A DNA stretch of 64,000 bases from Candidatus Uhrbacteria bacterium (GCA_016188355.1 JACPHY010000003.1:8170-72169), one strand, 5' to 3'. Positions 2,300 through 39,270 are shown, counted from the stretch's first letter. The notes: generated by a model not told the origin, from the sequence alone. Numbers and translations are program-made.

Positions 2300-4321
2300 A
2301 TGATCTCCATACTCACCTTTGCGCTCCTCACCGCGCTCGCAGCGATTGCGTACGGCGGCATCCTCACCGCCCAAATCCTGAAGCTCCCCGCGGGTGAAGG
2401 GAAGATGGTTGGCATCGCACATGCGATCCAGGAAGGTGCGCGCGCATTCCTGAAGCGTCAGTACATCTCCGTCGCATGGATCGGCGCGCTCCTCTTCCTC
2501 GTCATTGGACTGCTCCCGAGCCTCGGATGGAACGTCGCGATCGGATTCCTCGTGGGCGCCGTGCTCTCCGCAGCTGCCGGCATCATCGGCATGATGGTCG
2601 CGGTTCGCGCAAACGTGCGCACGGCAGAAGCCGCAAAGTTGGGGCTCCCCCAGGCACTCGACGTTGCCGTGAAAGGCGGCGCCGTGACCGGCATGCTCGT
2701 CGTCGGTCTCGCGCTCCTCGGTGTTGTTGCCGTGTTCTGGATGGGCGGCGCGAATGGTGACGCGCTCCACATGCTCGTCGGTCTCGGCTTCGGCGGTTCA
2801 CTCATCTCGGTCTTCGCCCGACTAGGTGGCGGCATCTACACGAAGGCCGCAGACGTCGGCGCCGATCTCGTCGGCAAAGTAGAGGCGGGCATTCCAGAAG
2901 ATGATCCTCGCAACCCGGCAGTCATCGCAGATAACGTGGGAGATAATGTGGGCGACGATGCGGGCATGGCTGCGGATCTCTTTGAAACGTACGCAGTCAC
3001 CACAGTCGCGACCATGCTCCTCGGCGCACTCATCGGCGGCGCGGACTCCGCGGCCGTACTCTACCCGCTCCTCATCGGTGGCATTGGCATCATCGCTTCC
3101 ATTCTCGGTACCTTTGCGATTCGTCTCGGCAAGGGTTCCACGCAAATCATGGCCGCGCTCTATAAAGGACTTGCCACATCCGGTGTGCTTGCCGCGATTG
3201 GCATCGTCGTCATTCCCGGACTCTTCACCATCGGCAATGCGTCCTTCAACGTGCGTTCCGCGGCACTCTTCGGCCCTGCACTCATCGGTCTCGCCGTGAC
3301 CGCGCTCCTCGTGCTCATCACGGAGTACTACACCTCGACCGGATTCGCCCCGGTCCGCTCTATCGCGCAAGCATCGGAAACGGGTCATGGCACGAACGTG
3401 ATTCAAGGACTCGCGGTGGGCCTCCGCTCGACCGCGCTCCCCGTGCTCGTCATCGCCGCCGCCATCGGCTGCTCGTATGCGCTCGGCGGTCTCTATGGCA
3501 TTGGCATTGCGGCTATGGCCATGCTCTCGCTCGCGGGCATCATCGTGACGATCGATGCATACGGTCCCATCACTGACAACGCCGGCGGCATTGCGGAAAT
3601 GGCCGGACTTCCGGACTCCGTGCGCGCGATCACCGATCCGCTCGACGCAGTCGGCAACACGACCAAAGCGGTCACCAAGGGCTACGCGATTGGCTCCGCG
3701 GGACTCGCCGCGCTCGTGCTCTTCGCGGATTACACGCACGCCCTCGCAAGTCGCGGCCTCTCGGTGGAGTTCCGCCTCGATGATCCGAAGGTGCTCATCG
3801 GACTCCTCATTGGTGGCGTCCTCCCGCATCTCTTTGGCGCGCGCGCCATGGAAGCGGTACGCAAGGCGGCGAGCAGCGTGGTGGAAGAAGTGCGCCGACA
3901 GTTCAAGGAAATCCCCGGCATCATGGAGGGGACCAGCAAGCCCGACTACGGTCGCTGCGTCGATATTGTGACGAAGGCTGCCATCCGGGAGATGATCATC
4001 CCTGCGCTCCTCCCTGTGGTCGCACCGATCCTGGTCGGCCTATTCCTCGGCGCACAGGCGCTCGGCGGTCTCCTCGTCGGCGTGCTCATCTCAGGACTCT
4101 TCATGGCGATCGCCATGACGACCGGCGGAGCGGCATGGGACAACGCGAAAAAGTACATCGAAGCGGGCAATCATGGCGGGAAAAAGTCACCCGCACATCA
4201 GGCGGCTGTCACCGGCGACACGGTCGGCGATCCATACAAGGACACCGCCGGACCCGCGATCAATCCGATGATCAAAATCGTGAACATCGTAGCGCTGCTC
4301 ATTGTGGGACTGCTCGCGTGA
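2300..4321 (+). CDS. hppA: K(+)-insensitive/H(+)-translocating membrane pyrophosphatase
   Basis: 673 aa, many TM helices. Contains the diagnostic '[22 protein letters not shown]' and '[17 protein letters not shown]' motifs of V-type H+-PPases. Confidence 0.95.
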
Positions 4322-5895
4322 GCCTCGCGCCGCGGTACGCAATACCCTTGCCCATGTGGGCAGGGGTATTGACATACATGCCTCGCCTGCGGTTCCATGG
4401 TTGCGCGGCGCCGCAGGGCTGTGCAGTACATCGCATCGTGATGCCGTGCTCCGCAGGGCAGCACGGAGCGCCGGGCCGAGTACCCAATCTCGGTACATTC
4501 GTCCTTTCCTTCTTCCCCCATCACCTGCGCACTGCCCGGCAACGCATCGCAATGCCTCGTGCCGCACGGCGCAGCTTCGACTCGCGCATGCCAACCGCGA
4601 GCAATGGGACACATGCGTCTCTCGTCCTCCACCTCCCACCGCGCAGCGCACCGCAGCGCACCGCGTAGCCCAGCAAGACTCGTCCCGGCAGCAAATCGAG
4701 TCCAATCTCGATGCATCCGCCTGCCACCGATCACCGCCGCGCAGCAGTGCATCGCGTCGCGGCGTACTGCTATGCGCCTCAGAGCGTCGCTCCGGATGGG
4801 GACCATCCCCATCCCCCCTCCCCCTGCACTCATATCCATTGATAGCGGCGCCGTAGTGCTACGCACCGCAGCGCATCGTGATGCAGCGCACCGCACCCGG
4901 CCGGGTACCCAACCCCGGCCGTTTCATTTTCTCGCCATACCACTTGACGACACTCCACCATCCCGGTATCGTCGCTGCGATGTCGAATCCTTCCCAATCC
5001 ACTCGCCCACTGCCCATGTGCTCCCTCCTCCTGGTGGACGACGATATCCTCACGATGGAATCCTACTGCTGAGCAACGTGCAGTTCTGCTAGGCATCGCC
5101 CAGCAATGTAGCGCGTTGCCCGGTCCGGAGTTCGGTCGAATCCGAACCCTCCAGATCCTCCACGCGCCATCGCCCTGCCCTGCGCAGCCGGGTATCGCGC
5201 TGCTACGCAGCGCGCCGCGAAGCGCGGTAGCGTTGTGAATCGGGCCACATCCCGATTACGTATTCCTGCGCACCACGATCTCATCGTCGCCAGGCTACGC
5301 AGTGCTCTGCTGCGCTCGGCAATGCTTCGGGTGGGACTCCATTCTCATCACGTCTGTATACATGGTGGCCGTTGCATGCCCAGCTTCGCCCAGCTACGCA
5401 ATGCACCGCGCAGCACTGCGCTGCCCTGTCGAGCAACGCATCGCGGCGGGTGAGGCCCCATCCTCACCAACCACTACTTCCACCCGCATCGCCACTCTCG
5501 CACTGTTCCTTGTTTCTTGTTCTCTTGCGCCGCGTCATGCGGCAATGCAACGCACAGTTCTGCTTCGCGGTGTTTTGTCGCGGGTGGGGCCCCATCCTCA
5601 TCACTGATCCCGTATATACCCATTGCTCACTCAGTGTCGCAGTGCTGCGCCCAGCAACGCAGCGCACGGTTGCGCTACGCACCGCTCCGGACCAGGTCCA
5701 TCCCTGGTCCGTTTTCTTTGCCATGACACACGGAAATACTGCGTGCGCCCATCACTTGACAGCACCTCGCGATTTGTTAAGGTGCCGATCGTCTCTGCGC
5801 CGCATGAGCGACCGCAAGAGGCGACCGCGCCTTCACAATCACAACAAAAACCTCTCAACCGAGTAGAGGGAAGAAGGCGCAAGGAGTGAGTATTC
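4322..5895. repeat. 1.57-kb non-coding repeat tract: degenerate ~12-mer arrays (GCARYGCANCGC-like) interspersed with hairpins carrying a conserved CCCAWYC loop and GTTTTC tail
   Basis: No credible ORF here; the track ORFs are Arg/Ala-rich antisense-type artefacts. Runs such as 'gcgcagcgcaccgcagcgcaccgcgtagc' and 'gtcgcagtgctgcgcccagcaacgcagcgcacggttgcgctacgcaccgctcc' show 12-nt periodicity. Hairpins sit at about 4898-4933 (CGGCCGGG/CCCGGCCG + TTTCATTTTCTC), 5449-5468 (GGTGAGG-ccccat-CCTCACC), 5583-5612 (degenerate) and 5689-5720 (GGACCAGG-tccatc-CCTGGTCC + GTTTTCTTTG). Confidence 0.7.
5756..5783 (+). promoter_or_regulatory. candidate sigma70-type promoter upstream of paralog A (TTGACA-16nt-TAAGGT)
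   Basis: 'cacTTGACAgcacctcgcgatttgtTAAGGTgcc' about 110 nt upstream of the ATG at 5896. Spacing is acceptable; the -10 is weak. Confidence 0.3.
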
Positions 5896-6792
5896 ATGGC
5901 ACGAAGGAAGAATACCGGCACATCCGGATCCCCAGACCCCGATGCCCCAGCGAGCACAGTGCAGGTGGGGAGCAGAAAGAAGACCCGGCCGCGTCAGACG
6001 GATGGCGCGAACGACAACAGTGGTCATGCGGCGGTGACCGCGGAGAGCGAGTTCGACGAGGAAGCGTTCCGGAAGGTCGTTGCCTTCCAGGTGACCTGCG
6101 TCGGCATCTCGCCCATCCTCATGGCGGCCGCGGATGAACGGAAGACGCTCGAGATTGATGGTGGCATCTCCGAGGATGACAAGGCGGAGAAAGGATCAAG
6201 CGTCGAGGCAATTCGCGAGCATGCACGAAAGTACGTCATGCCGCGGAAACTCTATCGCGATGCCGCGGGCCGCGTCGGTATCCCGGCAGAGAACTTCCTC
6301 GAGGCCCTCATGCAGGCCGGCGTGAAGATCAAGCACGACAAGAAACAGCTCACCACCGGCAAGCACTCATACGTGCCATCACTCCTCGACATCGTCGAGG
6401 ACTTCCTCCTCTTCCCGGAGTCCTGCCAGGATCAGCCGGACGGCACCCCGGGATGGGTCGAGGACTATGATCACGGCTGGGGCAAAACCGGTACGTTCGT
6501 CGCGATCAAGCGTCCGAAGTTCGAAGTCGGCAGCTGGGGATTCCGTGCGACGCTCATGTTCAACCCCTCCGAGATCCCCCCGAAGGTGGTCCGACAGCTC
6601 GTCGCGATCGCCGGACGATTCGTCGGACTCGGCGGACATCGCCCCGGCAAGCGCGGCCGATTCGGCAAGTTCGTGATCGGCGACTGGCAGCAGCTCGCCG
6701 TAGCACCGGCACTCAACGATCGCATCGACGTACAGAAGTTCGTGAAGGACGCGCGATGGCCCGAACCGATGCCCGCAGCCGCGTCGACCTGA
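5896..6792 (+). CDS. hypothetical protein, paralog A of a tandem pair (disordered basic N-terminus)
   Basis: 298-aa ORF. Clearly paralogous to the next ORF: 'FQVTCVGISPILMAAADERKTLEIDGG' vs 'FCTITCTGTSPLLLNQTTEEQTLRIDGG'; 'YVPSLLDIVEDF' vs 'LVPALLEIVEQE'; 'WGFRATLMFNPSEIPPKVVRQLVAIAGRFVGLGG' vs 'WGFTVTLACHPTLTPGPFLEELLTIAGARIGVGS'. No family recognised. Confidence 0.6.
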   Translation: MARRKNTGTSGSPDPDAPASTVQVGSRKKTRPRQTDGANDNSGHAAVTAESEFDEEAFRKVVAFQVTCVGISPILMAAADERKTLEIDGGISEDDKAEKGSSVEAIREHARKYVMPRKLYRDAAGRVGIPAENFLEALMQAGVKIKHDKKQLTTGKHSYVPSLLDIVEDFLLFPESCQDQPDGTPGWVEDYDHGWGKTGTFVAIKRPKFEVGSWGFRATLMFNPSEIPPKVVRQLVAIAGRFVGLGGHRPGKRGRFGKFVIGDWQQLAVAPALNDRIDVQKFVKDARWPEPMPAAAST

Positions 6793-7637
6793 GTCCGCAA
6801 ACGCGCAAGGACACTTGGACGCTCCGTCCGGAAATCCTTGCGGCGGCACGACGCGCACAGGAGGAAATCCTCCCCGCGTTTTGCACCATTACATGCACGG
6901 GCACCTCGCCGCTGCTCCTCAATCAGACCACGGAGGAGCAGACGCTCCGCATCGATGGCGGCATGCGCGGCCCGCGGTTTCCGAAACCGCCGAATGCCAT
7001 CGCGCACGTGGCCAATCTTGCGCGGCGACGACAACGCGGTGATCCATCAGCGCAGGAGGAGCGTGCCGCACCGGAGGAGTGGGCTGCCTTCCATGCGTGG
7101 GAACGCCAATGCTACCGCGATCTCGTGGCAGCGCCAGGAATTCCGCGCATGGCAGACGGCTCCCCGTTCATTCCGGCACGCTACCTGGAGGAATGCCTCG
7201 TGCGTGCGGGACGGTATCTGGAGCATCCGCGGCTCGGCATACTCACGGACCCGGAGCCGAACGGCGGCAGCCTCGTTCCCGCACTCCTGGAGATCGTGGA
7301 ACAGGAACTGCCACTCCCGAACGATCAATGGGAACTCGATCTCCGACCGGGATGGAAGCATGGCGAAACAAATCCGGATCTCCGGAAATCGATCGCCCGC
7401 GCCAAGTACCGCGTCTGGGGATTCACGGTGACCCTGGCCTGCCATCCGACCCTCACGCCCGGTCCGTTCCTCGAGGAGCTGCTCACCATTGCGGGCGCGC
7501 GGATTGGTGTCGGTAGTTTCCGCCGTGACCCACGGAAGGGACATACGGAGCTCCGCGCGGTGTTCGGTCGATTCCGACCGACGCAGTGCGTCATGCAGAC
7601 AATCAACGCGCTGCCGCCCGAGGAGGCGGAGGCGTAA
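6756..7637 (+). CDS. hypothetical protein, paralog B of the tandem pair
   Basis: 293-aa ORF. Its start overlaps the end of paralog A by 37 nt in another frame, with no alternative in-frame start before the conserved block. Same conserved blocks as paralog A. Confidence 0.55.
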   Translation: MARTDARSRVDLSPQTRKDTWTLRPEILAAARRAQEEILPAFCTITCTGTSPLLLNQTTEEQTLRIDGGMRGPRFPKPPNAIAHVANLARRRQRGDPSAQEERAAPEEWAAFHAWERQCYRDLVAAPGIPRMADGSPFIPARYLEECLVRAGRYLEHPRLGILTDPEPNGGSLVPALLEIVEQELPLPNDQWELDLRPGWKHGETNPDLRKSIARAKYRVWGFTVTLACHPTLTPGPFLEELLTIAGARIGVGSFRRDPRKGHTELRAVFGRFRPTQCVMQTINALPPEEAEA

Positions 7638-8048
7638 CGAGTATCGATTCCTACGACGCGCGCAACGCACTGCAGTGCAACGTTGGGCAACGCACATCTC
7701 CGGGCGGGGCCCCATCCCCGCCCGTTTTCACTCACCACGCGTTCTCTTCGACTGCGGCAGCGCATCGCGCCGCGCCGCAGCGTGCGGTAATGCCGCGTTC
7801 CGAACGGAGCCCAATCTCCGTTCTCGCTTTTGCCCGCCCTCCGCACACTTACGCCCATATGTCGCCTGCGCCGCTGCGCATTGCAATGCAGCGTGTGGCA
7901 AAGCTACGCATTGGATCGGGAACCCTATCCCGATCCTTTTCTTTTGCGCATGCGATCGCACGCGCCACATTGACGAAGTCATGCGATTCTGCCAATATCT
8001 CCCTGTTCGATACGATCGTTCCCAATTACCGAAGGAGGAGCATGAGCC
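7638..8048. repeat. intergenic repeat tract (12-mer-like motifs plus three conserved-loop hairpins); contains a candidate promoter for the helicase
   Basis: Hairpins at 7701-7728, 7802-7834 (GAACGGAG-cccaat-CTCCGTTC + TCGCTTTTG) and 7913-7946 (GGATCGGGA-acccta-TCCCGATCC + TTTTCTTTTG). Motifs 'gcaacgcactgcagtgcaacg' and 'cattgcaatgcagcg'. Promoter-like 'TTGACGaagtcatgcgattctgcCAATAT' at about 7970-7998. Confidence 0.55.
7700..7730 (+). terminator. intrinsic-terminator-like hairpin after paralog B (CGGGCGGGG-ccccat-CCCCGCCCG + TTTTC)
   Basis: Perfect 9-bp GC stem with conserved loop 'ccccatc', followed by 'gttttcac'. Located about 65 nt after the stop at 7637. Confidence 0.5.
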
Positions 8049-9926
8049 ATGCGCGTCACGCTCACCGACTGTCTTGCCCAGTTTCCGCATCGCGCCATTC
8101 GCCCGGAGCAACAGGAACTCCTCGCCGCAATCACCGCAACTCCGGAGAGCATCACCATTGAGGGACCGACGGGCCTCGGAAAAACGGATGTGGCGATGTC
8201 CGTGCTCCGCGCGCGAGCGGCGACAGTGGCACAGGAACTTCGCGATCGCCAAGCGACCAATCCCGCCGCACGACCGCACCCGCGATGGTACTGCACGCCG
8301 ACGAAGAACGAGGTGGAACAAATCCAGCATCGATTCCCAGAGGTGCGCGTCATCTATGGGCGCAATGAGTATCCCTGCGCGTACTACCATGCGCGCGGCA
8401 TGCCGCTTGCCGCGGACGCCGTGCCATGCGCGACGCTCCGGAAGCAGCACTGCTGCCCGCATGCCATCGTGCCAGAGACCGGTCTCCCGGAAGATCCGCA
8501 CGCCGAGCCCTGTGCGTACCTCGCGGCGAAACATGCAGCGAAATCCGGAGGCATCGTCGTGACGACCACCGCATTTTTCCTCACGAGCTCGCTGCTCGCG
8601 CGCGATTGGGAAACGCCGGATACGGTCGTCATGGACGAAGCGGACCAACTCGCGGACATCGCGAGCCAACTCTTTGCGACGCACATTACCGATTCCGCGC
8701 TGCTCCAAATCTTGGCGCTCCTAGAACGCATCAACGACGCGCATCACGCGGATCTCTTCCGCACGTTCCTCGACATACTCCAACGGCACACGAGTCGTAC
8801 CCCTGGGGAATCGAAAATCCTCGAACCCACGCAGACCATCGCCCTGATCCAGCTCCTCGAACGTGCGCATTATCCGCATCTCCATGAACGCATCCAAACC
8901 GCGATGCGATCCGGGGTCTTGGATCCCGTGCAACAGCAATCGGAGCTCCGCATCCTCGAGGACCTCACGCGGAACATTCTCCGTTACCTTCGCCATCTCC
9001 GCTTCGCCGTAGGCGACGCCGATCGCGGGCCGCGCAATCTTGCCTTCGCGTATGCGGTACGAGAACGCGCGGACGGCACCATGGTCTGCCGCCTCGTCAT
9101 TGAGCCGTACCTGGTGAATGGACTCATCCGCGCGGCGGTTGGCGACCATGTCCTCGCCATGTCCGCCACCATTGGCGATGGGACGTACTTCGGATACGAA
9201 ACCGGACTCACCGCGCCGGTGTACCGAGTCGCGCGGTCCCCGTTTCCGATCCATCACCGACGCATCTATCTCCCCATCGATACACCCGACCTCGCCCATC
9301 GGGCACAGGAACGCAACACGCTGCGCGACGCGGTCATCCGCATTCTCGACTGCTGCGCGAAGTTCCGCGCGCGTGGCCATCGCGCACTGATCGTCACCAT
9401 GTCCAATGCGGAGCGCGATCACTTCGTGCGCCGCGCACCCGATGCGGGCCTCACTCTCATCTCGTATGGGAACGGCGTGACCGCACGTAATGCGCTCGAA
9501 CGATTTGTGCAGGGGGAAGGCGATGTGCTCGTCGGCACGTCCGCACAGTTCGCCACCGGCATTGATCTCCCGAAACAGATCGCGCCCATCATTGTGGCGC
9601 TCCGACCGAAGTATAGTAATCCGCACGATCCGCGCGCACAGTTCGAGGAATTGCAGCGCCTCTCCAAGGGCAAACGATTCGCCCGAGAACGATATCGCGC
9701 CACCAAGAATGCACTGCAGGTCTCCGGTCGCAATTGGCGCACCCCGGAGAGCGTAGGCATCACCATCTTCTACTCACGCCAATTCCGCGATCTCTTTCCG
9801 CAGGGATTACCGAGGTGGCTCGAACCCGCGTACGTCTCGACGCGTACACTCGACCAAATCGTCGAGGAGGCATGTGTCCTCCTCGACGCCGCACCCGACC
9901 TCCCGATCGCCGCCAGCAGCACCTGA
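8049..9926 (+). CDS. Rad3/XPD/DinG-like SF2 DNA helicase with Fe-S cluster domain
   Basis: 625 aa. Walker A 'IEGPTGLGKTD', motif II 'VVMDEADQL'. Cys-rich insertion between motifs I and II ('YPCAYYHARG...VPCATLRKQHCCPHAIV...EPCAYL') is typical of 4Fe-4S Rad3-family helicases. C-terminal 'VLVGTSAQFATGIDLP' matches motif V. RBS AAGGAGG upstream. Confidence 0.8.
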   Translation: MRVTLTDCLAQFPHRAIRPEQQELLAAITATPESITIEGPTGLGKTDVAMSVLRARAATVAQELRDRQATNPAARPHPRWYCTPTKNEVEQIQHRFPEVRVIYGRNEYPCAYYHARGMPLAADAVPCATLRKQHCCPHAIVPETGLPEDPHAEPCAYLAAKHAAKSGGIVVTTTAFFLTSSLLARDWETPDTVVMDEADQLADIASQLFATHITDSALLQILALLERINDAHHADLFRTFLDILQRHTSRTPGESKILEPTQTIALIQLLERAHYPHLHERIQTAMRSGVLDPVQQQSELRILEDLTRNILRYLRHLRFAVGDADRGPRNLAFAYAVRERADGTMVCRLVIEPYLVNGLIRAAVGDHVLAMSATIGDGTYFGYETGLTAPVYRVARSPFPIHHRRIYLPIDTPDLAHRAQERNTLRDAVIRILDCCAKFRARGHRALIVTMSNAERDHFVRRAPDAGLTLISYGNGVTARNALERFVQGEGDVLVGTSAQFATGIDLPKQIAPIIVALRPKYSNPHDPRAQFEELQRLSKGKRFARERYRATKNALQVSGRNWRTPESVGITIFYSRQFRDLFPQGLPRWLEPAYVSTRTLDQIVEEACVLLDAAPDLPIAASST

Positions 9927-10329
9927 CCCACCTCTCCGACTCCGCAGCGCAGTGCCTCGCCATGCAACGTTCCGCGCCGCGACGCTGCGCTCCGCAATGC
10001 AACGGACTGGGATTCACCCTAGTCTCGTCGCCCCGTTCCGAAAACTGCCATCCTCCATGCCATGCGGCGCTCGGTACCGCGTGGCAATGCAGTGCGCCGC
10101 TCCGCAATGATTCGGGACCATCCCGTTGCTTCATCGCTCATGACGGATCGCCCGCGCGGTGCTACGCAGCGCGGTGCAATGCCCCGTGGCGCGTCGCGGT
10201 GCAATGCGCAGCTCATTATTGCAGCGGACCGGGTTACCCCCGGTCCTTTTCTTTTTCTCCAATCGCCACCCATGCTTGACGTCCACGGGATACCGTGGTG
10301 CACTAGGAACGCTGATTATCGAATCTTGT
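9927..10329. repeat. intergenic repeat tract of the same family (GCAATGCAACG-type 12-mers plus hairpins)
   Basis: 'gcagcgcagtgcctcgccatgcaacgttccgcgccgcgacgctgcgctccgcaatgcaacgg', 'gtggcaatgcagtgcgccgctccgcaatg' and 'ggtgctacgcagcgcggtgcaatgccccgtggcgcgtcgcggtgcaatgcgcagc'. Terminal hairpin 10225-10259: GGACCGGG-ttacc-CCCGGTCC + TTTTCTTTTTCTCC. Confidence 0.6.
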
Positions 10330-13455: not shown

Positions 13456-14352
13456 ATGTCCCATTCCCCAGAACGCACGCAGGAATCCGCAGCGGAGGCA
13501 TCACCATCGCGCGCGAAAGAAACCATCTTTACTGCGGAGCGCGCGGAACACGATGTCTCCTGGGATGAATCGCCGGAAGCGGTGTTCCGCGATGCGCTCG
13601 CGCTCCTGGCGCCCGAACTCACCCCCGCGCAAACCGATGCGCTGACGCAGGAGCTCTCGCACGAATCTCCGACGCTCGATGCGATCCGCGCGATTGTCCA
13701 CGACGCTGCGCTCGCGCGTCGGATCGGAAAATGCAGCGATCAGTACCTGGGACGGCCGGTGCTGGTACATGGCATCTGGGAACAGCTGCGGTATGGGGCC
13801 ACCACATCCGGCATGACGGACACCGGACTCGGCCTCCGGCGCGCGCTCGCATGGCAGAGCGCGAACACCCACCGCACCGATCTCCGGGTGACGTATCCCG
13901 CATCCGGAGCGGATGCGACCGGATTCCTCGATCACCTCACGGGTGCACCGATTGCCCACCTCGACTGCGTCACCGCTGGCGGTCCTCAAGGCGCCGATCG
14001 CAAAGCAGCATCCCAAGACATTGATACGACGCTCGTCAAAAGCACGATCCAGCAAGCACTCGAGCAGCAACGCATCGCTCCCGCGGATTGCGTGGTCCTC
14101 GACAGCTCCGGATTCGGCGTGCTCATGGATCTCGCCGATCCCACGGTGCTCGCGGGGGCGCTCGATCGTCTCGTGGTGCCGGGTGGTATCCTCGTCACCA
14201 CTTCGGGGTATCTGGGTGCGGGAAGGGAATCCGTTAAACACGTACTCACGCAACTTCCGCCGGAACGCTACCGATACGTGGGACACCAGGGCGGTAACGT
14301 CTTCATCGTGGAACGCACGCGCACTACATCGGATGCGACCACATCCACCTGA
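13456..14352 (+). CDS. hypothetical protein (298 aa)
   Basis: RBS 'GGGGAGG' upstream, non-repetitive composition, fits between neighbours. Family not recognised. Confidence 0.5.
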   Translation: MSHSPERTQESAAEASPSRAKETIFTAERAEHDVSWDESPEAVFRDALALLAPELTPAQTDALTQELSHESPTLDAIRAIVHDAALARRIGKCSDQYLGRPVLVHGIWEQLRYGATTSGMTDTGLGLRRALAWQSANTHRTDLRVTYPASGADATGFLDHLTGAPIAHLDCVTAGGPQGADRKAASQDIDTTLVKSTIQQALEQQRIAPADCVVLDSSGFGVLMDLADPTVLAGALDRLVVPGGILVTTSGYLGAGRESVKHVLTQLPPERYRYVGHQGGNVFIVERTRTTSDATTST

Positions 14353-18528: not shown

Positions 18529-18917
18529 TGGCCCAAGCACCCCGAACACGGCTACCGCCCACGCGAACCAGAGAGGAGGGTCCGTGCGACTGCGATACCC
18601 TTCTGGGTTTCTCTAACGAATCGGGGCTGAACCCATGCGGTTCAGTACCCAGTCACCCCACCCCCGCCAGAAGAGAGGAGGAGGGTCCGTGCGATCTCAG
18701 TACCCCAGCGGCGAAACGTAAGGCCGCTAAGGACAATCCTCGCTCAGGGAACAACGCTTGCCGCGATCACCAACGGCGAATCCCGACGCGGCCCGTTTCC
18801 TGAGCGCGATCTCCCGCCCCACGCCCCGCCCCATTTCCCCGACGTCATCCCACCGGCACCACGCCGCACACAGGATGATCCCGTCCCTTACGACACACAG
18901 ACGCGCTAGCGACAGCG

Positions 18918-18983
18918 CCCCCGACATCGGTCGGGGGTCCACCCGAGCGCCGGAGGCCCAAGTGGCATCCGGTGCTCAGGCGG
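18918..18983 (+). repeat. family-A element, copy 3
   Basis: 'CCCCCGACatcGGTCGGGGGTCCACCCGAGCGCCGGAGGCCCAAGTGGCATCCGGTGCTCAGGCGG'. The 5' hairpin is conserved through different bases than copy 2. Confidence 0.6.
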
Positions 18984-19024
18984 ATATTTCCTGGATGCAC
19001 CTTATTGAAGAAAGGAGGCCCGCA

Positions 19025-19474
19025 GTGCGCGCAAATGGATTTTGGCAACGTGGCGAATTCCGACTGGTTCGGCTTTCGCGATACGATAACTCCCGCGCCA
19101 TGCGGGAATGGTTCCCGCCCACGGCAGGACGCGGCATTTGGGCCTGGGCGGTGAAACTCTGTGATCTTCCGGAGTTCCACCACATCTATCGCGATCAATC
19201 GCGGCAGATTGTACACCCGAGGCGCGATGCCCGAGCGTGGGCGATCCGATGGACGGAGCTTGACGCCTACGTCTGTGGGCTCTCCGAGCACCATCCGGAG
19301 TGTGCGGAATTTGACCCCTCCCTTCACCACGTCCAAATCGTGGACCGCATGCAACCTTGTTGGTGCGGCTGCGATAGGACGGATGGTCCGTTCCGATACG
19401 TCACGAACTCCTGGGCAATCTACGTCGAAGGACCCATGCGCCGTCGACGCTGCCTCCCCACGCACCACCCCTAA
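19025..19474 (+). CDS. hypothetical Cys/Trp/His-rich protein (~149 aa), island ORF
   Basis: GTG start 9 nt after GAAAGGAGG, about 40 nt after family-A copy 3. '...HHPECAEFDPSLHHVQIVDRMQPCWCGCDRTDGPFRY...'. The upstream part of track ORF 18758..19474 runs through the repeat and was rejected. Confidence 0.45.
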   Translation: MRANGFWQRGEFRLVRLSRYDNSRAMREWFPPTAGRGIWAWAVKLCDLPEFHHIYRDQSRQIVHPRRDARAWAIRWTELDAYVCGLSEHHPECAEFDPSLHHVQIVDRMQPCWCGCDRTDGPFRYVTNSWAIYVEGPMRRRRCLPTHHP

Positions 19475-19519
19475 TTCACCCTGACTCCCACTTCGCGAAA
19501 TGCTTCGCGGGACAAGTGC

Positions 19520-19593
19520 GGTCGGGGGTCCACCCGAATTTCGGAGGCCGCGCTATGGTGTCGCAAGATGCCATACCTCCGGAATTCAGGCGG
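19520..19593 (+). repeat. family-A element, copy 4 (indel variant)
   Basis: 'GGTCGGGGGTCCACCCGAatttCGGAGGccgcgctatggtgtcgcaagatgccataCCTCCGgaattCAGGCGG'. The central hairpin is replaced by a longer nested hairpin (UAUGGU..GCCAUA). Confidence 0.5.
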
Positions 19594-38910: not shown

Positions 38911-39270
38911 CTATACTCGCGCGCCCTCAAGTCGAGTCACCCGACGCACAAGATCGTTCTGTTCCTTCTCCAAACGTTGACACTTATCGCGAAGCGCGAC
39001 TAGTTCAATGTCCAACGTCTTATGTAACGTCACAAAACCATCCACGCCCGCGGCGAGGTCATCGATGCGTGTATTGGTCGCGTCGATCCGATCATTCATC
39101 ACACCAATGCGGTCACCCACCGCATCAATACGAAGATTGGTCGCGTCGATCCGATCTCCCAGGTTCTTCGTTACCTCGACAAGCTGTTGATCAATCTTTG
39201 TGAACTGTTGATCAATCTTTGTGAAGTGACCCTGGAGAAATTCGATGAGTTCTTGCTGCTGGTCAGCCAT
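38911..39270 (-). CDS. small coiled-coil repeat protein (119 aa), paralog family
   Basis: 'MADQQQELIEFLQGHFTKIDQQFTKIDQQL...DRIDATNLRIDAVGDRIGVMNDRIDATNTRIDDL' with 11-residue repeats. N-terminus similar to ORFs 15218 and 15520. Confidence 0.5.
   Translation of the reverse strand: MADQQQELIEFLQGHFTKIDQQFTKIDQQLVEVTKNLGDRIDATNLRIDAVGDRIGVMNDRIDATNTRIDDLAAGVDGFVTLHKTLDIELVALRDKCQRLEKEQNDLVRRVTRLEGARV

What the first reader, a model, noticed from the sequence alone, without database searches (positions are those of the whole stretch)
5896..9926. Tandem paralogous unknown proteins plus an Fe-S Rad3/DinG-like helicase, bracketed by structured repeat DNA: candidate uncharacterised (defense-like?) module
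Two adjacent paralogous proteins of about 295 aa (clear block-wise similarity, no motif I can assign; the first has a disordered basic N-terminus) are followed by a 625-aa SF2 helicase with a Cys-rich Fe-S insertion between motifs I and II. The helicase has its own promoter-like element. The three genes sit between hppA and tig, flanked on both sides and internally by unusual repeat and hairpin tracts (4322-5895, 7638-8048, 9927-10329). That pattern suggests an inserted unit rather than core chromosome. The 37-nt out-of-frame overlap between the paralogs is also unusual. Helicase-plus-small-partner pairs are a recurrent theme of phage-defense systems, but the partners here do not resemble any I can recall.
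Basis: partly seen in the sequence, partly recalled or inferred. Interest (0 to 1): 0.75.

Follow-up and report, generated by a model that had tools for sequence, protein, structure and literature searches.

The report
VIPR RNA-guided system with two Viprs
The three genes and the odd repeat DNA around them form a VIPR system, a recently described CRISPR-like RNA-guided DNA-targeting system, here in an unusual form with two diverged copies of the guide-binding protein plus an iron-sulfur helicase.

Summary
ORFs 5896-6792 and 6756-7637 are paralogs (30% identity, E=7e-23) that overlap by 37 nt, and they are followed by a 625-aa Fe-S SF2 helicase.

The "structured repeat DNA" consists of guide-RNA genes. 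There are 17 plus-strand units, each with 5-14 G-Y-N-N-N pentamers followed by a hairpin. All 15 runs of (GCNNN)≥5 in the 64-kb window lie in these three tracts, against about 0.7 expected by chance. This is the vrRNA architecture of VIPR systems (bioRxiv 10.64898/2026.04.26.720920), in its "YNNNG" variant.

The helicase is a dedicated accessory. In 16 of 17 homologous helicase loci, mostly Patescibacteria, a Vipr gene and pentamer arrays lie alongside it. Those loci have one Vipr. Only this small clade has an A+B pair.

No natural targets were found. Verdict: a known kind of system, probably VIPR type IV, in a duplicated-RAMP variant.

The parts
4403..5711 (+). Upstream vrRNA array of 11 units. 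Repeat tract to tail hairpin: 4403-4494, 4529-4601, 4643-4712, 4739-4814, 4858-4921, 5088-5147, 5172-5257, 5289-5349, 5378-5468, 5527-5602, 5639-5711. Each unit has 7-14 G-Y-N-N-N pentamers followed by a 6-9-bp hairpin with a loop like yCCAaT. T-rich terminator-like tails follow the hairpins at 4898-4921 and 5688-5711.
   Evidence: pentamer runs and matrix; terminators on + strand only; hairpins: stems of at least 7 bp in 64% of units against 12-16% in controls.
5756..5783 (+). Promoter-like element upstream of viprA: TTGACA, 16 nt, TAAGGT. It is weak at -10 and was not called by the scanner. An AAGGAG ribosome-binding site lies at about 5882-5887.
   Evidence: Read directly from the sequence. 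One search did not list it.
5896..6792 (+). viprA: a Vipr (RAMP-fold, Cas7-like) protein of 298 aa with a disordered basic N-terminus and a C-terminal extension. G-loop is GLGGHRPGKRGRFGKF.
6756..7637 (+). viprB: a diverged Vipr paralog of 293 aa that overlaps viprA by 37 nt. It carries an insertion after beta1/alpha1 and an extended G-loop, GVGSFRRDPRKGHTELRAVFGRF.
   Evidence: BLASTP against A E=7e-23. Vipr HMM E=7e-47. B-like orthologues in L001, L002, P0010 and P0012. Sister clade to A-like in the NJ tree.
7662..7936 (+). Internal vrRNA array of 3 units (7662-7724, 7757-7823, 7868-7936). Each ends in a terminator-like hairpin followed by a T-run.
7970..7998 (+). Promoter-like element for the helicase: TTGACG, 17 nt, CAATAT (weak -10). 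It is needed because three terminator-like hairpins separate viprB from the helicase.
   Evidence: Read directly from the sequence. Not called.
8049..9926 (+). Accessory (vap-type) SF2 helicase of the XPD/Rad3/DinG Fe-S family, 625 aa.
   Evidence: Pfam Helicase_C_2, DEAD, DEAD_2. PADLOC 'typeIV_DinG, CAS-IV-A associated' E=8.9e-41 over the full length. Four invariant Cys, Walker A and DEAD/H box. PDB profile hits: CHL1 1e-11, XPD 5e-10, FANCJ 5e-8. A Vipr gene lies upstream in 16 of 17 homologous loci.
9944..10246 (+). Downstream vrRNA array of 3 units (9944-10025, 10059-10125, 10156-10246). The last unit ends in a strong terminator-like hairpin (10226-10246) followed by a T-run.
   Evidence: Orthologous guides in L001.

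Best explanation
The locus 4403-10246 is a VIPR (Viral Interference Programmable Repeat) system. Such systems use RNA guides to recognise DNA.

Shown here:
- Two Vipr-family RAMP proteins (A and B) and an Fe-S XPD/DinG-type helicase are interleaved with 17 plus-strand units of about 70-100 nt.
- Each unit has 5-14 pentamers with consensus G(98%)-Y(C 88%, T 12%)-N-N-y, followed by a hairpin.

Inferred from the published SUSP1 and P. fulva work:
- The units are transcribed as vrRNAs.
- Vipr protomers polymerise along the repeat tract, one per pentamer. They bury the conserved G-Y and present the two variable bases, which are positions 3-4 of the GYNNN register.
- The filament binds double-stranded DNA whose sequence matches the concatenated dinucleotides with one skipped base between them, (NNx)n. 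This forms an R-loop triplex that blocks transcription.

Inferred for this variant:
- The helicase is the accessory effector. It is probably recruited to the bound target to unwind or clear it, by analogy with CasDinG in type IV-A CRISPR.
- A and B have split the Vipr role. One is probably the repeating backbone subunit. The other is probably a capping or processing subunit for the conserved 3' hairpin.
- The targets are probably phages or other mobile elements of these Patescibacteria. They were not found.
For: Protein side:
- The A/B family has 1,152 cluster representatives at E<=1e-3.
- All 106 sampled members match phrog_4652.
- The family profile hits PDB 36pp 'SUSP1 Vipr protein' at E=5.9e-16 over residues 1-192.
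- The SUSP1 residues that hold G2 and Y3 (R138, R179) are invariant in A and B (contacts from 10.64898/2026.04.26.720927).

RNA side:
- Fifteen of 15 (GCNNN)>=5 runs lie in the three tracts, against 0.7 expected.
- The pentamer matrix is the same in the second genome.
- Hairpins follow 89% of 45 units (stem of at least 6 bp); stems of at least 7 bp occur in 64% against 12-16% in controls.
- All six terminator-like sites in the arrays are on the + strand.
- Between orthologous vrRNAs of the two Uhrbacteria, substitution rates per pentamer position are 0.01, 0.22, 0.10, 0.16 and 0.38 over 81 pentamers. In one pair, 8 of 8 N3N4 dinucleotides are identical while position 5 differs in 4 of 8. Positions 3-4 therefore behave as the selected guide.
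- The VIPR paper describes vrRNAs of about 100 nt made of 9-16 pentamers plus a structured 3' tail, located in the intergenic DNA flanking vipr. It lists YNNNG as an alternative repeat.

Association:
- The trio with arrays recurs in L001 and L002-L004.
- Using the helicase as bait, 16 of 17 loci have a Vipr upstream on the same strand, with N-G-Y/NN arrays between and after the genes.
Against: - There are no expression data. Transcription, processing and RNP formation are inferred.
- No natural target was found. There was no self-target in the window above shuffled-guide controls. Exact 10-unit guides gave no IMG/VR hit. Eight-unit cores gave chance-level hits that do not extend. Four metagenome hits look like chance.
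- The 1-nt-skip rule has been demonstrated only for GGY/NN type II systems. It is assumed here.
- Roles for A versus B and for the helicase are inferences with no direct test.
- Substitution of the G1-contact residues (H17, D177) in A and B fits the missing first G. However, single-Vipr relatives keep the Asp and also lack a fixed G1, so that correlation is imperfect.
- Only the first unit has a recognisable -35 box immediately upstream. Many units may therefore need processing from longer transcripts by an unknown nuclease.
Confidence: 0.88

Rival explanations
1. It is a VIPR system domesticated for regulating the host's own genes rather than for conflict with mobile elements. The vrRNAs would silence chromosomal promoters or genes of the Uhrbacteria cell.
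For: - The module sits between housekeeping genes (hppA, tig), not in a defence island.
- It occupies the same position in a second species (Vipr A 67% identical).
- Several guides are conserved between the two species at the NN positions.
- No viral target was found.
- No helicase-type relatives were found on IMG/VR contigs.
Against: - No guide matches the remaining ~58 kb of the window, or the fetched loci, better than shuffled guides.
- The published chromosomal VIPR types target viral sequences and show no self-targets.
- Only about 6% of the genome was searchable here.
- CPR phages are poorly represented in databases, so missing viral hits carry little weight.
Confidence: 0.1
2. The pentamer/hairpin units are selfish or structural intergenic repeats (REP/MITE-like) that accumulated around an unrelated DinG-type repair helicase and two hypothetical proteins. 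There is no functional link.
For: - The units are degenerate, and only some have clear terminators.
- There are no expression data.
Against: - The units occur only at this locus within the 64 kb.
- The same three-tract layout recurs with orthologous genes in different chromosomal contexts and at different GC contents, with the Y of the motif tracking GC.
- The proteins are homologues of a structurally characterised pentamer-repeat RNA binder.
- The helicase scores far below the NCBIfam DinG/YoaA cut-offs (59 bits against 680), and it is linked to Vipr in 16 of 17 loci.
Confidence: 0.01
3. It is a degenerate or minimal type IV-A CRISPR-Cas system, with Csf2/Csf3-like RAMPs plus CasDinG.
For: - The best PADLOC hit of the helicase is a model labelled type IV-A CRISPR-associated DinG (E=8.9e-41).
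- There are two RAMP paralogs plus a DinG-like helicase.
Against: - The window contains no CRISPR repeat-spacer array.
- There is no Csf1/Cas8-like or Cas6/Csf5 gene.
- Csm3 and Cmr hits outrank Csf2.
- By sequence, A and B belong to the Vipr family.
- Two other Csf4 models match only weakly (1e-10 and 2e-5).
- No CasDinG chain is hit in PDB.
Confidence: 0.01

Closest known systems
VIPR systems (Vipr protein plus vrRNA); bioRxiv 10.64898/2026.04.26.720920 and 10.64898/2026.04.26.720927. Probably the helicase-bearing type, which is type IV by elimination.
   Same: - Vipr-family RAMP protein.
- vrRNA genes of about 100 nt in the intergenic DNA flanking vipr, made of tandem pentamers with conserved and hypervariable positions plus a structured 3' tail.
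- No CRISPR array.
- An adjacent accessory (vap) gene that acts on DNA.
- The YNNNG repeat variant is listed by the authors.
- About a quarter of the reported systems are chromosomal.
   Different: - There are two diverged Vipr paralogs (30% identity) in an overlapping operon instead of one. The paper counts 670 Viprs in 667 systems and calls the loci 'typically two genes'.
- There are 17 vrRNAs in three arrays, compared with four in SUSP1.
- The tail is a simple hairpin rather than the SUSP1-clade pseudoknot.
- The host is a Patescibacteria (CPR) chromosome.
- The text available to me gives no description of the helicase type, so assignment to 'type IV' is an inference. Types III and V are called the only nuclease types among the enzyme-bearing types III-V.
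Type IV-A CRISPR-Cas (Csf2/Cas7, Csf3/Cas5, CasDinG)
   Same: - RAMP-based RNA-guided complex paired with a DinG-family helicase.
- Two different RAMP subunits.
- Acts, as I recall it, mainly by interference or repression without a nuclease. This point is from memory.
- The helicase's best defence-library match is a type IV-A-associated DinG model.
   Different: - No CRISPR array, Cas6 or large subunit.
- The guides are gapped pentamer repeats, not contiguous spacers.
- The helicase keeps a four-Cys Fe-S module. From memory, canonical CasDinG lacks this module.
- By sequence, A and B are Viprs and not Csf2/Csf3.
Type III Csm3/Cmr4 (Cas7) backbone subunits
   Different: - Sequence identity is only 10-16%.
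- Cas7 binds crRNA with 6-nt periodicity and contiguous pairing.
- Vipr uses a 5-nt periodicity and presents 2 of every 5 bases.

Membership tests
VIPR system | A Vipr protein: a small RAMP-fold protein (RRM core, G-loop, thumb) homologous to SUSP1 Vipr | tested here: met
   - Family profile against PDB 36pp, E=5.9e-16.
- phrog_4652 hits for A and B.
- AF2 model pLDDT 88 with RAMP-only top hits.
- G-loop and thumb Arg are invariant in A and B.
VIPR system | vrRNA genes in the flanking intergenic DNA: tandem pentanucleotide repeats (YNNGG, or the related NNNGG, YNNNG, NNNNG) with conserved and hypervariable positions | tested here: met
   - There are 17 units of 5-14 G-Y-N-N-y pentamers, which is the YNNNG class.
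- Fifteen of 15 strict runs lie at the locus, against 0.7 expected.
- The same is seen in L001 and L002.
- Repeat definitions come from the paper.
VIPR system | A conserved structured 3' tail after the repeat tract | tested here: met
   - A hairpin follows within 0-25 nt of the tract end in 40 of 45 units.
- Stems of at least 7 bp occur in 64% of units, against 12% in dinucleotide shuffles and 16% in random genomic windows.
- The loop consensus is yCCAaT.
- A pseudoknot was not examined.
VIPR system | No CRISPR array and no cas operon at the locus | tested here: met
   - No spaced direct repeats.
- No Rfam CRISPR direct-repeat or other family.
- No Cas hits other than the DinG model.
VIPR system | A linked accessory (vap) gene that acts on DNA | tested here: met
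   The Fe-S helicase is linked to Vipr in 16 of 17 homologous loci, and the 17th contig is truncated. Which numbered vap it corresponds to could not be checked because no supplement is held.
VIPR system | vrRNAs are expressed and co-purify with Vipr | not testable with these tools
   This needs sRNA-seq or a pull-down. Only the strand-consistent terminator-like sites bear on it.
VIPR system | NN dinucleotides specify dsDNA targets under the 1-nt-skip rule; natural targets lie in mobile elements | tested here: inconclusive
   - Positions 3-4 are the most conserved variable positions between orthologous guides.
- No target was found in the window, in the fetched loci, in IMG/VR or in JGI metagenomes.
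Type IV-A CRISPR-Cas | A CRISPR repeat-spacer array plus Csf1 (large subunit), Csf2, Csf3 and Cas6/Csf5 | tested here: not met
   There is no array. The locus has only three ORFs. By sequence, A and B are Vipr-family proteins.
Type IV-A CRISPR-Cas | A CasDinG (Csf4) helicase | tested here: inconclusive
   One PADLOC model (PDLC01439, 'CAS-IV-A; associated') matches over the full length at 8.9e-41. Csf4_0_IVA and Csf4_2_IVA1 match at only 1e-10 and 2e-5. No CasDinG chain is found in PDB.
XPD/Rad3/DinG Fe-S SF2 helicases | Walker A and DEAD/DEAH motifs, a four-Cys Fe-S module between motifs I and II, and a Helicase_C_2 second RecA domain | tested here: met
   - Motifs and four invariant Cys.
- Helicase_C_2 above its cut-off; DEAD_2 just below its cut-off.
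- PDB profile hits to CHL1, XPD and FANCJ.
- Metal binding itself is not testable here.
Housekeeping DinG / YoaA repair helicase | Reaches the equivalog score of the NCBIfam DinG or YoaA models | tested here: not met
   YoaA scores 58.8 bits against a cut-off of 680. DinG scores 35 and 28 bits against cut-offs of 789 and 598. E. coli DinG in PDB matches at E=0.29.

The most novel reading that the evidence does not exclude
The A+B pair is a natural case of RAMP duplication and specialisation inside a VIPR system. One paralog would form the repeat-reading backbone, like Cas7. The other would cap or process the conserved 3' hairpin, like Cas5 or Cas6. The complex would recruit a DinG-family helicase. 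That would make this clade a living intermediate, or a convergent analogue, between single-protein VIPR and multi-RAMP class 1 effectors such as type IV-A. It is the step that the VIPR authors propose only hypothetically.
Probability: 0.2. Interest if true: 0.8.

Novelty: new variant of a known kind. Interest (0 to 1): 0.5.

Why it matters
VIPR is a newly described mode of RNA-guided DNA recognition, using gapped pentamer guides, and it has been proposed as the ancestor of CRISPR effectors.

This locus adds three things:
- A large chromosomal system of 17 guides in Patescibacteria, organisms with tiny genomes and few known defences.
- Comparative evidence that in the G-Y-N-N-N variant the two bases after G-Y are the selected guide positions.
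- A conserved duplication of the Vipr protein, paired with an Fe-S DinG-like helicase.

If the two paralogs form a heteromeric effector, the locus would document the 'RAMP duplication and specialisation' step of the proposed route from VIPR to class 1 CRISPR. It would also give an experimentally tractable three-gene system to test that step.

If the paralogs do not form such an effector, the locus is simply one more member of the helicase-bearing VIPR type.

Tried and rejected
- CRISPR-array reading of the flanks: rejected. There are no spaced direct repeats.
- Pfam, NCBIfam and PADLOC on A and B: no hits. Only PHROGs gave a lead.
- First AF2 run with a 3-sequence MSA: unusable, pLDDT 42.
- Word-indexed homology searches: two returned almost nothing because low-complexity N-termini swamped the candidate list. 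A core-only alignment fixed this.
- The search for related loci with broad Vipr alignments: it failed or found nothing in GTDB representatives. The helicase worked as bait.
- 10-nt alternation of pentamers, as expected if A and B strictly alternate along the RNA: no signal, since lag-1 and lag-2 similarities are equal.
- Linking loss of the G-loop Asp (D177) to loss of the first G of GGY: weakened. Single-Vipr relatives keep the Asp and also lack a fixed G1.
- Target hunting: negative throughout.
  - Eight alternative guide/skip rules against the window gave no excess over shuffled guides.
  - IMG/VR scans used two exact guides and two 8-unit cores.
  - One JGI metagenome scan was run.
  - All fetched loci were searched. 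The top scores there are circular because they come from loci fetched with those same patterns.
- Rfam, including a permissive scan for hammerhead-interspersed arrays: nothing.
- Helicase-type VIPR on IMG/VR viral contigs: none found with the two peptide patterns used.
- Supplementary tables of the VIPR paper, needed to check whether this accession and its type are listed: not held.

Full report
**Observation**

A (5896-6792) and B (6756-7637) are paralogs: BLASTP E=7e-23, 30% identity. They overlap by 37 nt out of frame. B's start is conserved in the orthologue, and similar overlaps of 34, 4 and 25 nt occur in related loci. The 625-aa protein (8049-9926) is an SF2 helicase with Walker A, a DEAD box and four invariant cysteines between them. 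hppA and tig flank the unit.

**The repeat tracts are the key**

A CRISPR-style reading fails because there are no spaced direct repeats. The tracts are instead pentamer-periodic. All 15 runs of (GCNNN)x>=5 in the 64-kb window fall inside 4403-5668, 7757-7892 and 9944-10215, where 0.7 are expected by chance.

Parsed in register, there are 17 units, all on the + strand. Each has 5-14 pentamers with the matrix G 0.98, C 0.88/T 0.12, N, N, Y 0.77. Each tract is followed within 0-25 nt by a 6-9-bp hairpin with a loop like yCCAaT.

The hairpins are not a by-product of GC content. Stems of at least 7 bp occur in 64% of 45 units from three genomes, against 12% in dinucleotide shuffles and 16% in random genomic windows. 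All six terminator-like sites in the arrays are on the + strand.

**What the paralogs are**

Pfam, NCBIfam and PADLOC give nothing for A or B. PHROGs gives phrog_4652, of unknown function. An exhaustive HMMER search finds 1,152 cluster representatives, mostly 190-260 aa, and all sampled members match phrog_4652.

**What VIPR is (from the literature)**

Two 2026 preprints describe Viral Interference Programmable Repeat systems.
- A ~20-kDa RAMP-like Vipr protein polymerises on vrRNAs of about 100 nt. These are made of 9-16 YNNGG pentamers plus a structured 3' tail and are encoded in the intergenic DNA flanking vipr.
- The variable NN bases pair with double-stranded DNA under a one-nucleotide-skip rule. 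This forms an R-loop triplex and silences transcription.
- Seven types are defined with accessory vap genes. Types III-V carry nucleases or helicases. Alternative repeats NNNGG, YNNNG and NNNNG exist.

The units here are the YNNNG class read as G-Y-N-N-N. Types III and V are called the only nuclease-encoding types, so the helicase type is type IV by elimination. That is my inference. The text says nothing more, and the supplements are not held.

**Does the association hold elsewhere?**

Yes.
- A second Uhrbacteria genome (L001, Vipr A 67% identical) has hppA, arrays, A, B, arrays, helicase, arrays and tig, with 23-24 units of the same matrix.
- A different lineage (L002-L004) has the same trio and arrays between RNase J and GlmS. 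Its helicase is 47% identical and its B is 38% identical.
- L005-L007 carry an A-like plus B-like pair next to an rve integrase.
- Using the helicase as bait against one genome per GTDB species returned 17 loci. Nearly all are Patescibacteria, plus one Aenigmatarchaeota MAG and one MAG labelled Gammaproteobacteria.
- In 16 of these loci a Vipr gene lies upstream on the same strand, and the 17th contig is cut 172 nt upstream.
- Those loci carry N-G-Y/NN pentamer arrays between vipr and the helicase and after it. The motif is GT in low-GC genomes, GC here and GGT in L008.

The helicase is therefore a dedicated VIPR accessory gene and not a housekeeping DinG. NCBIfam DinG and YoaA scores are about a tenth of their cut-offs. 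Its nearest solved relatives are CHL1, XPD and FANCJ. Its best defence-library match is a model labelled type IV-A CRISPR-associated DinG.

**What is particular here**

All 16 bait-recovered loci have a single Vipr with the canonical G-loop GLGDFRPxxKGPFGRF. Only the window, L001 and L002 clade (and the L005-L007 fragments) has two.
- A-like proteins have GLG[G/A]HRP...KKGxxGxF and a conserved C-terminal extension.
- B-like proteins have GxGSFRxDPR...RAVFGRF and an insertion after the first strand and helix.
- In an NJ tree the A-like and B-like clades are sisters, which suggests one duplication with both copies retained. The tree has no support values.
- Against SUSP1 Vipr, the residues that hold G2 and Y3 (R138, R179) are invariant in A and B. 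The G1 contacts are replaced: H17 to Ala (A) or Asn (B), and D177 to Gly (A) or Ser (B). This fits the loss of the first G. However, single-Vipr relatives keep the Asp with a similarly loose first position, so I do not lean on it.

**Which positions guide?**

Nine or ten vrRNAs are orthologous and largely collinear between the window and L001. Over 81 aligned pentamers the substitution rates by position are 0.01 (G), 0.22 (Y, C/T only), 0.10, 0.16 and 0.38. In W10059 against L1_14754, all eight N3N4 dinucleotides are identical while position 5 differs in four. Positions 3-4 therefore behave as the selected guide dinucleotide, as in GGY/NN. I saw no 10-nt alternation that would indicate strict A-B-A-B loading.

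**Targets**

None were found.
- Eight guide/skip rules gave no excess over shuffled guides in the rest of the window.
- Two exact 10-unit guides gave no IMG/VR hit.
- Two conserved 8-unit cores gave 11 and 29 hits. These are near chance, mostly in low-GC phages, and the remaining units match at only about 25%.
- One JGI metagenome scan gave four unconvincing hits.
- A search of all fetched loci was not above control once the pattern-fetched loci are discounted.

The public scans accept exact matches only, whereas published natural targets are defined at 80% or more NN match. CPR phages are also sparsely sampled. The negative result is therefore weak.

**Mechanism, with status**

Shown: Vipr-family RAMP proteins; pentamer-plus-hairpin units on the coding strand; linkage of Vipr, arrays and helicase across lineages; selective constraint on positions 1-4.

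Inferred from the type II work: transcription into vrRNAs; one protomer per pentamer; presentation of NN; gapped pairing to dsDNA and silencing.

Inferred for this variant: the helicase acts on the bound target, by analogy with CasDinG, and A and B divide the backbone and capping or processing roles.

**Rivals**

- Domestication for host gene regulation is possible but has no positive evidence (confidence 0.1).
- REP-like repeats around an unrelated repair helicase is refuted by the co-occurrence data.
- A type IV-A CRISPR variant is not supported, because there is no array, no Cas6 and no large subunit.

**Is it an insertion?**

GC content is indistinguishable from the flanks, and the position is shared by two species, so it was not recently inserted. 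The different neighbours in L002 and the integrase in L005 show mobility over longer times.

**Verdict**

The locus is a genuine, well-supported VIPR system and therefore a known kind as of 2026. It is most likely the helicase-bearing type, and it has a duplicated, diverged Vipr pair that the accessible text of the discovery paper does not describe. I rate it a new variant of a known kind with interest 0.5. The duplicated-RAMP reading is the part that could matter for models of CRISPR origin.

Noticed in passing
window 5378-5468 vs L001 12059-12140: The orthologue of this vrRNA from the upstream array lies in L001 in the middle array, between viprB and the helicase. The other orthologous pairs are collinear. 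The window has 17 units and L001 has 23-24. Units are therefore gained, lost and moved between arrays, and some look like diverged duplicates of each other (for example window 4643 and 4858).
   Followed up: partly
window 6670-6789 (C-terminus of Vipr A) and 5896-6060 (N-terminus): A-like Viprs share a C-terminal extension ending in a conserved aromatic-Pro motif (FVKDARWPEP here; ...EAMWP, ...EFTWSAP and ...SYTYP in relatives) and a disordered basic, Gly-rich N-terminus. Canonical single Viprs and B lack both. These could be interaction peptides for B or for the helicase.
   Followed up: no
L001 7215-9214: In the related genome the upstream vrRNA array is interrupted by three small called genes that are absent from the window: 178 aa on the minus strand, a 99-aa DUF2103 protein and a 139-aa protein. 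A 130-aa DUF4345 gene lies between the downstream array and tig.
   Followed up: no
L002 11704-11716 and 11830-11842; window 4365-4402: In L002 each tail hairpin is followed directly by TTCCTATTGAC(A/G), a -35-like box, which suggests one promoter per vrRNA. In the window only the first unit has TTGACA upstream, and strong terminators occur only after some units. The window arrays may therefore be made as multi-unit precursors that need processing.
   Followed up: partly
L066 8518-8571 and L067 (minus strand, about 3786-3814): Two of the four metagenome contigs that matched the 10-unit guide pattern share a conserved stretch of about 50 nt (GGTGGGGATAnAGnGGnAAnCCnGGnGTnGGnAAnGATAAC...GGGGG) with no open reading frame. 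This may be an unrelated conserved non-coding element. I treated the match as chance.
   Followed up: no
window 13456-14352: A 298-aa ORF downstream of the DsbD-like gene has no Pfam hit. It is conserved in position in L001, where a 295-aa gene lies at 18672-19559.
   Followed up: no
window 39184-39225: A perfect tandem duplication of a 21-nt AT-rich unit (CTGTTGATCAATCTTTGTGAA x2). It is the only strong tandem repeat in the window.
   Followed up: no
L009 (JAUXAV010000068.1) and L008 (CAZQTS010000015.1): Helicase-type VIPR loci also occur in a MAG labelled Aenigmatarchaeota (DPANN archaea) and in one labelled Gammaproteobacteria. This reflects either horizontal spread beyond Patescibacteria or binning error. 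L008 uses canonical GGT/NN repeats.
   Followed up: no
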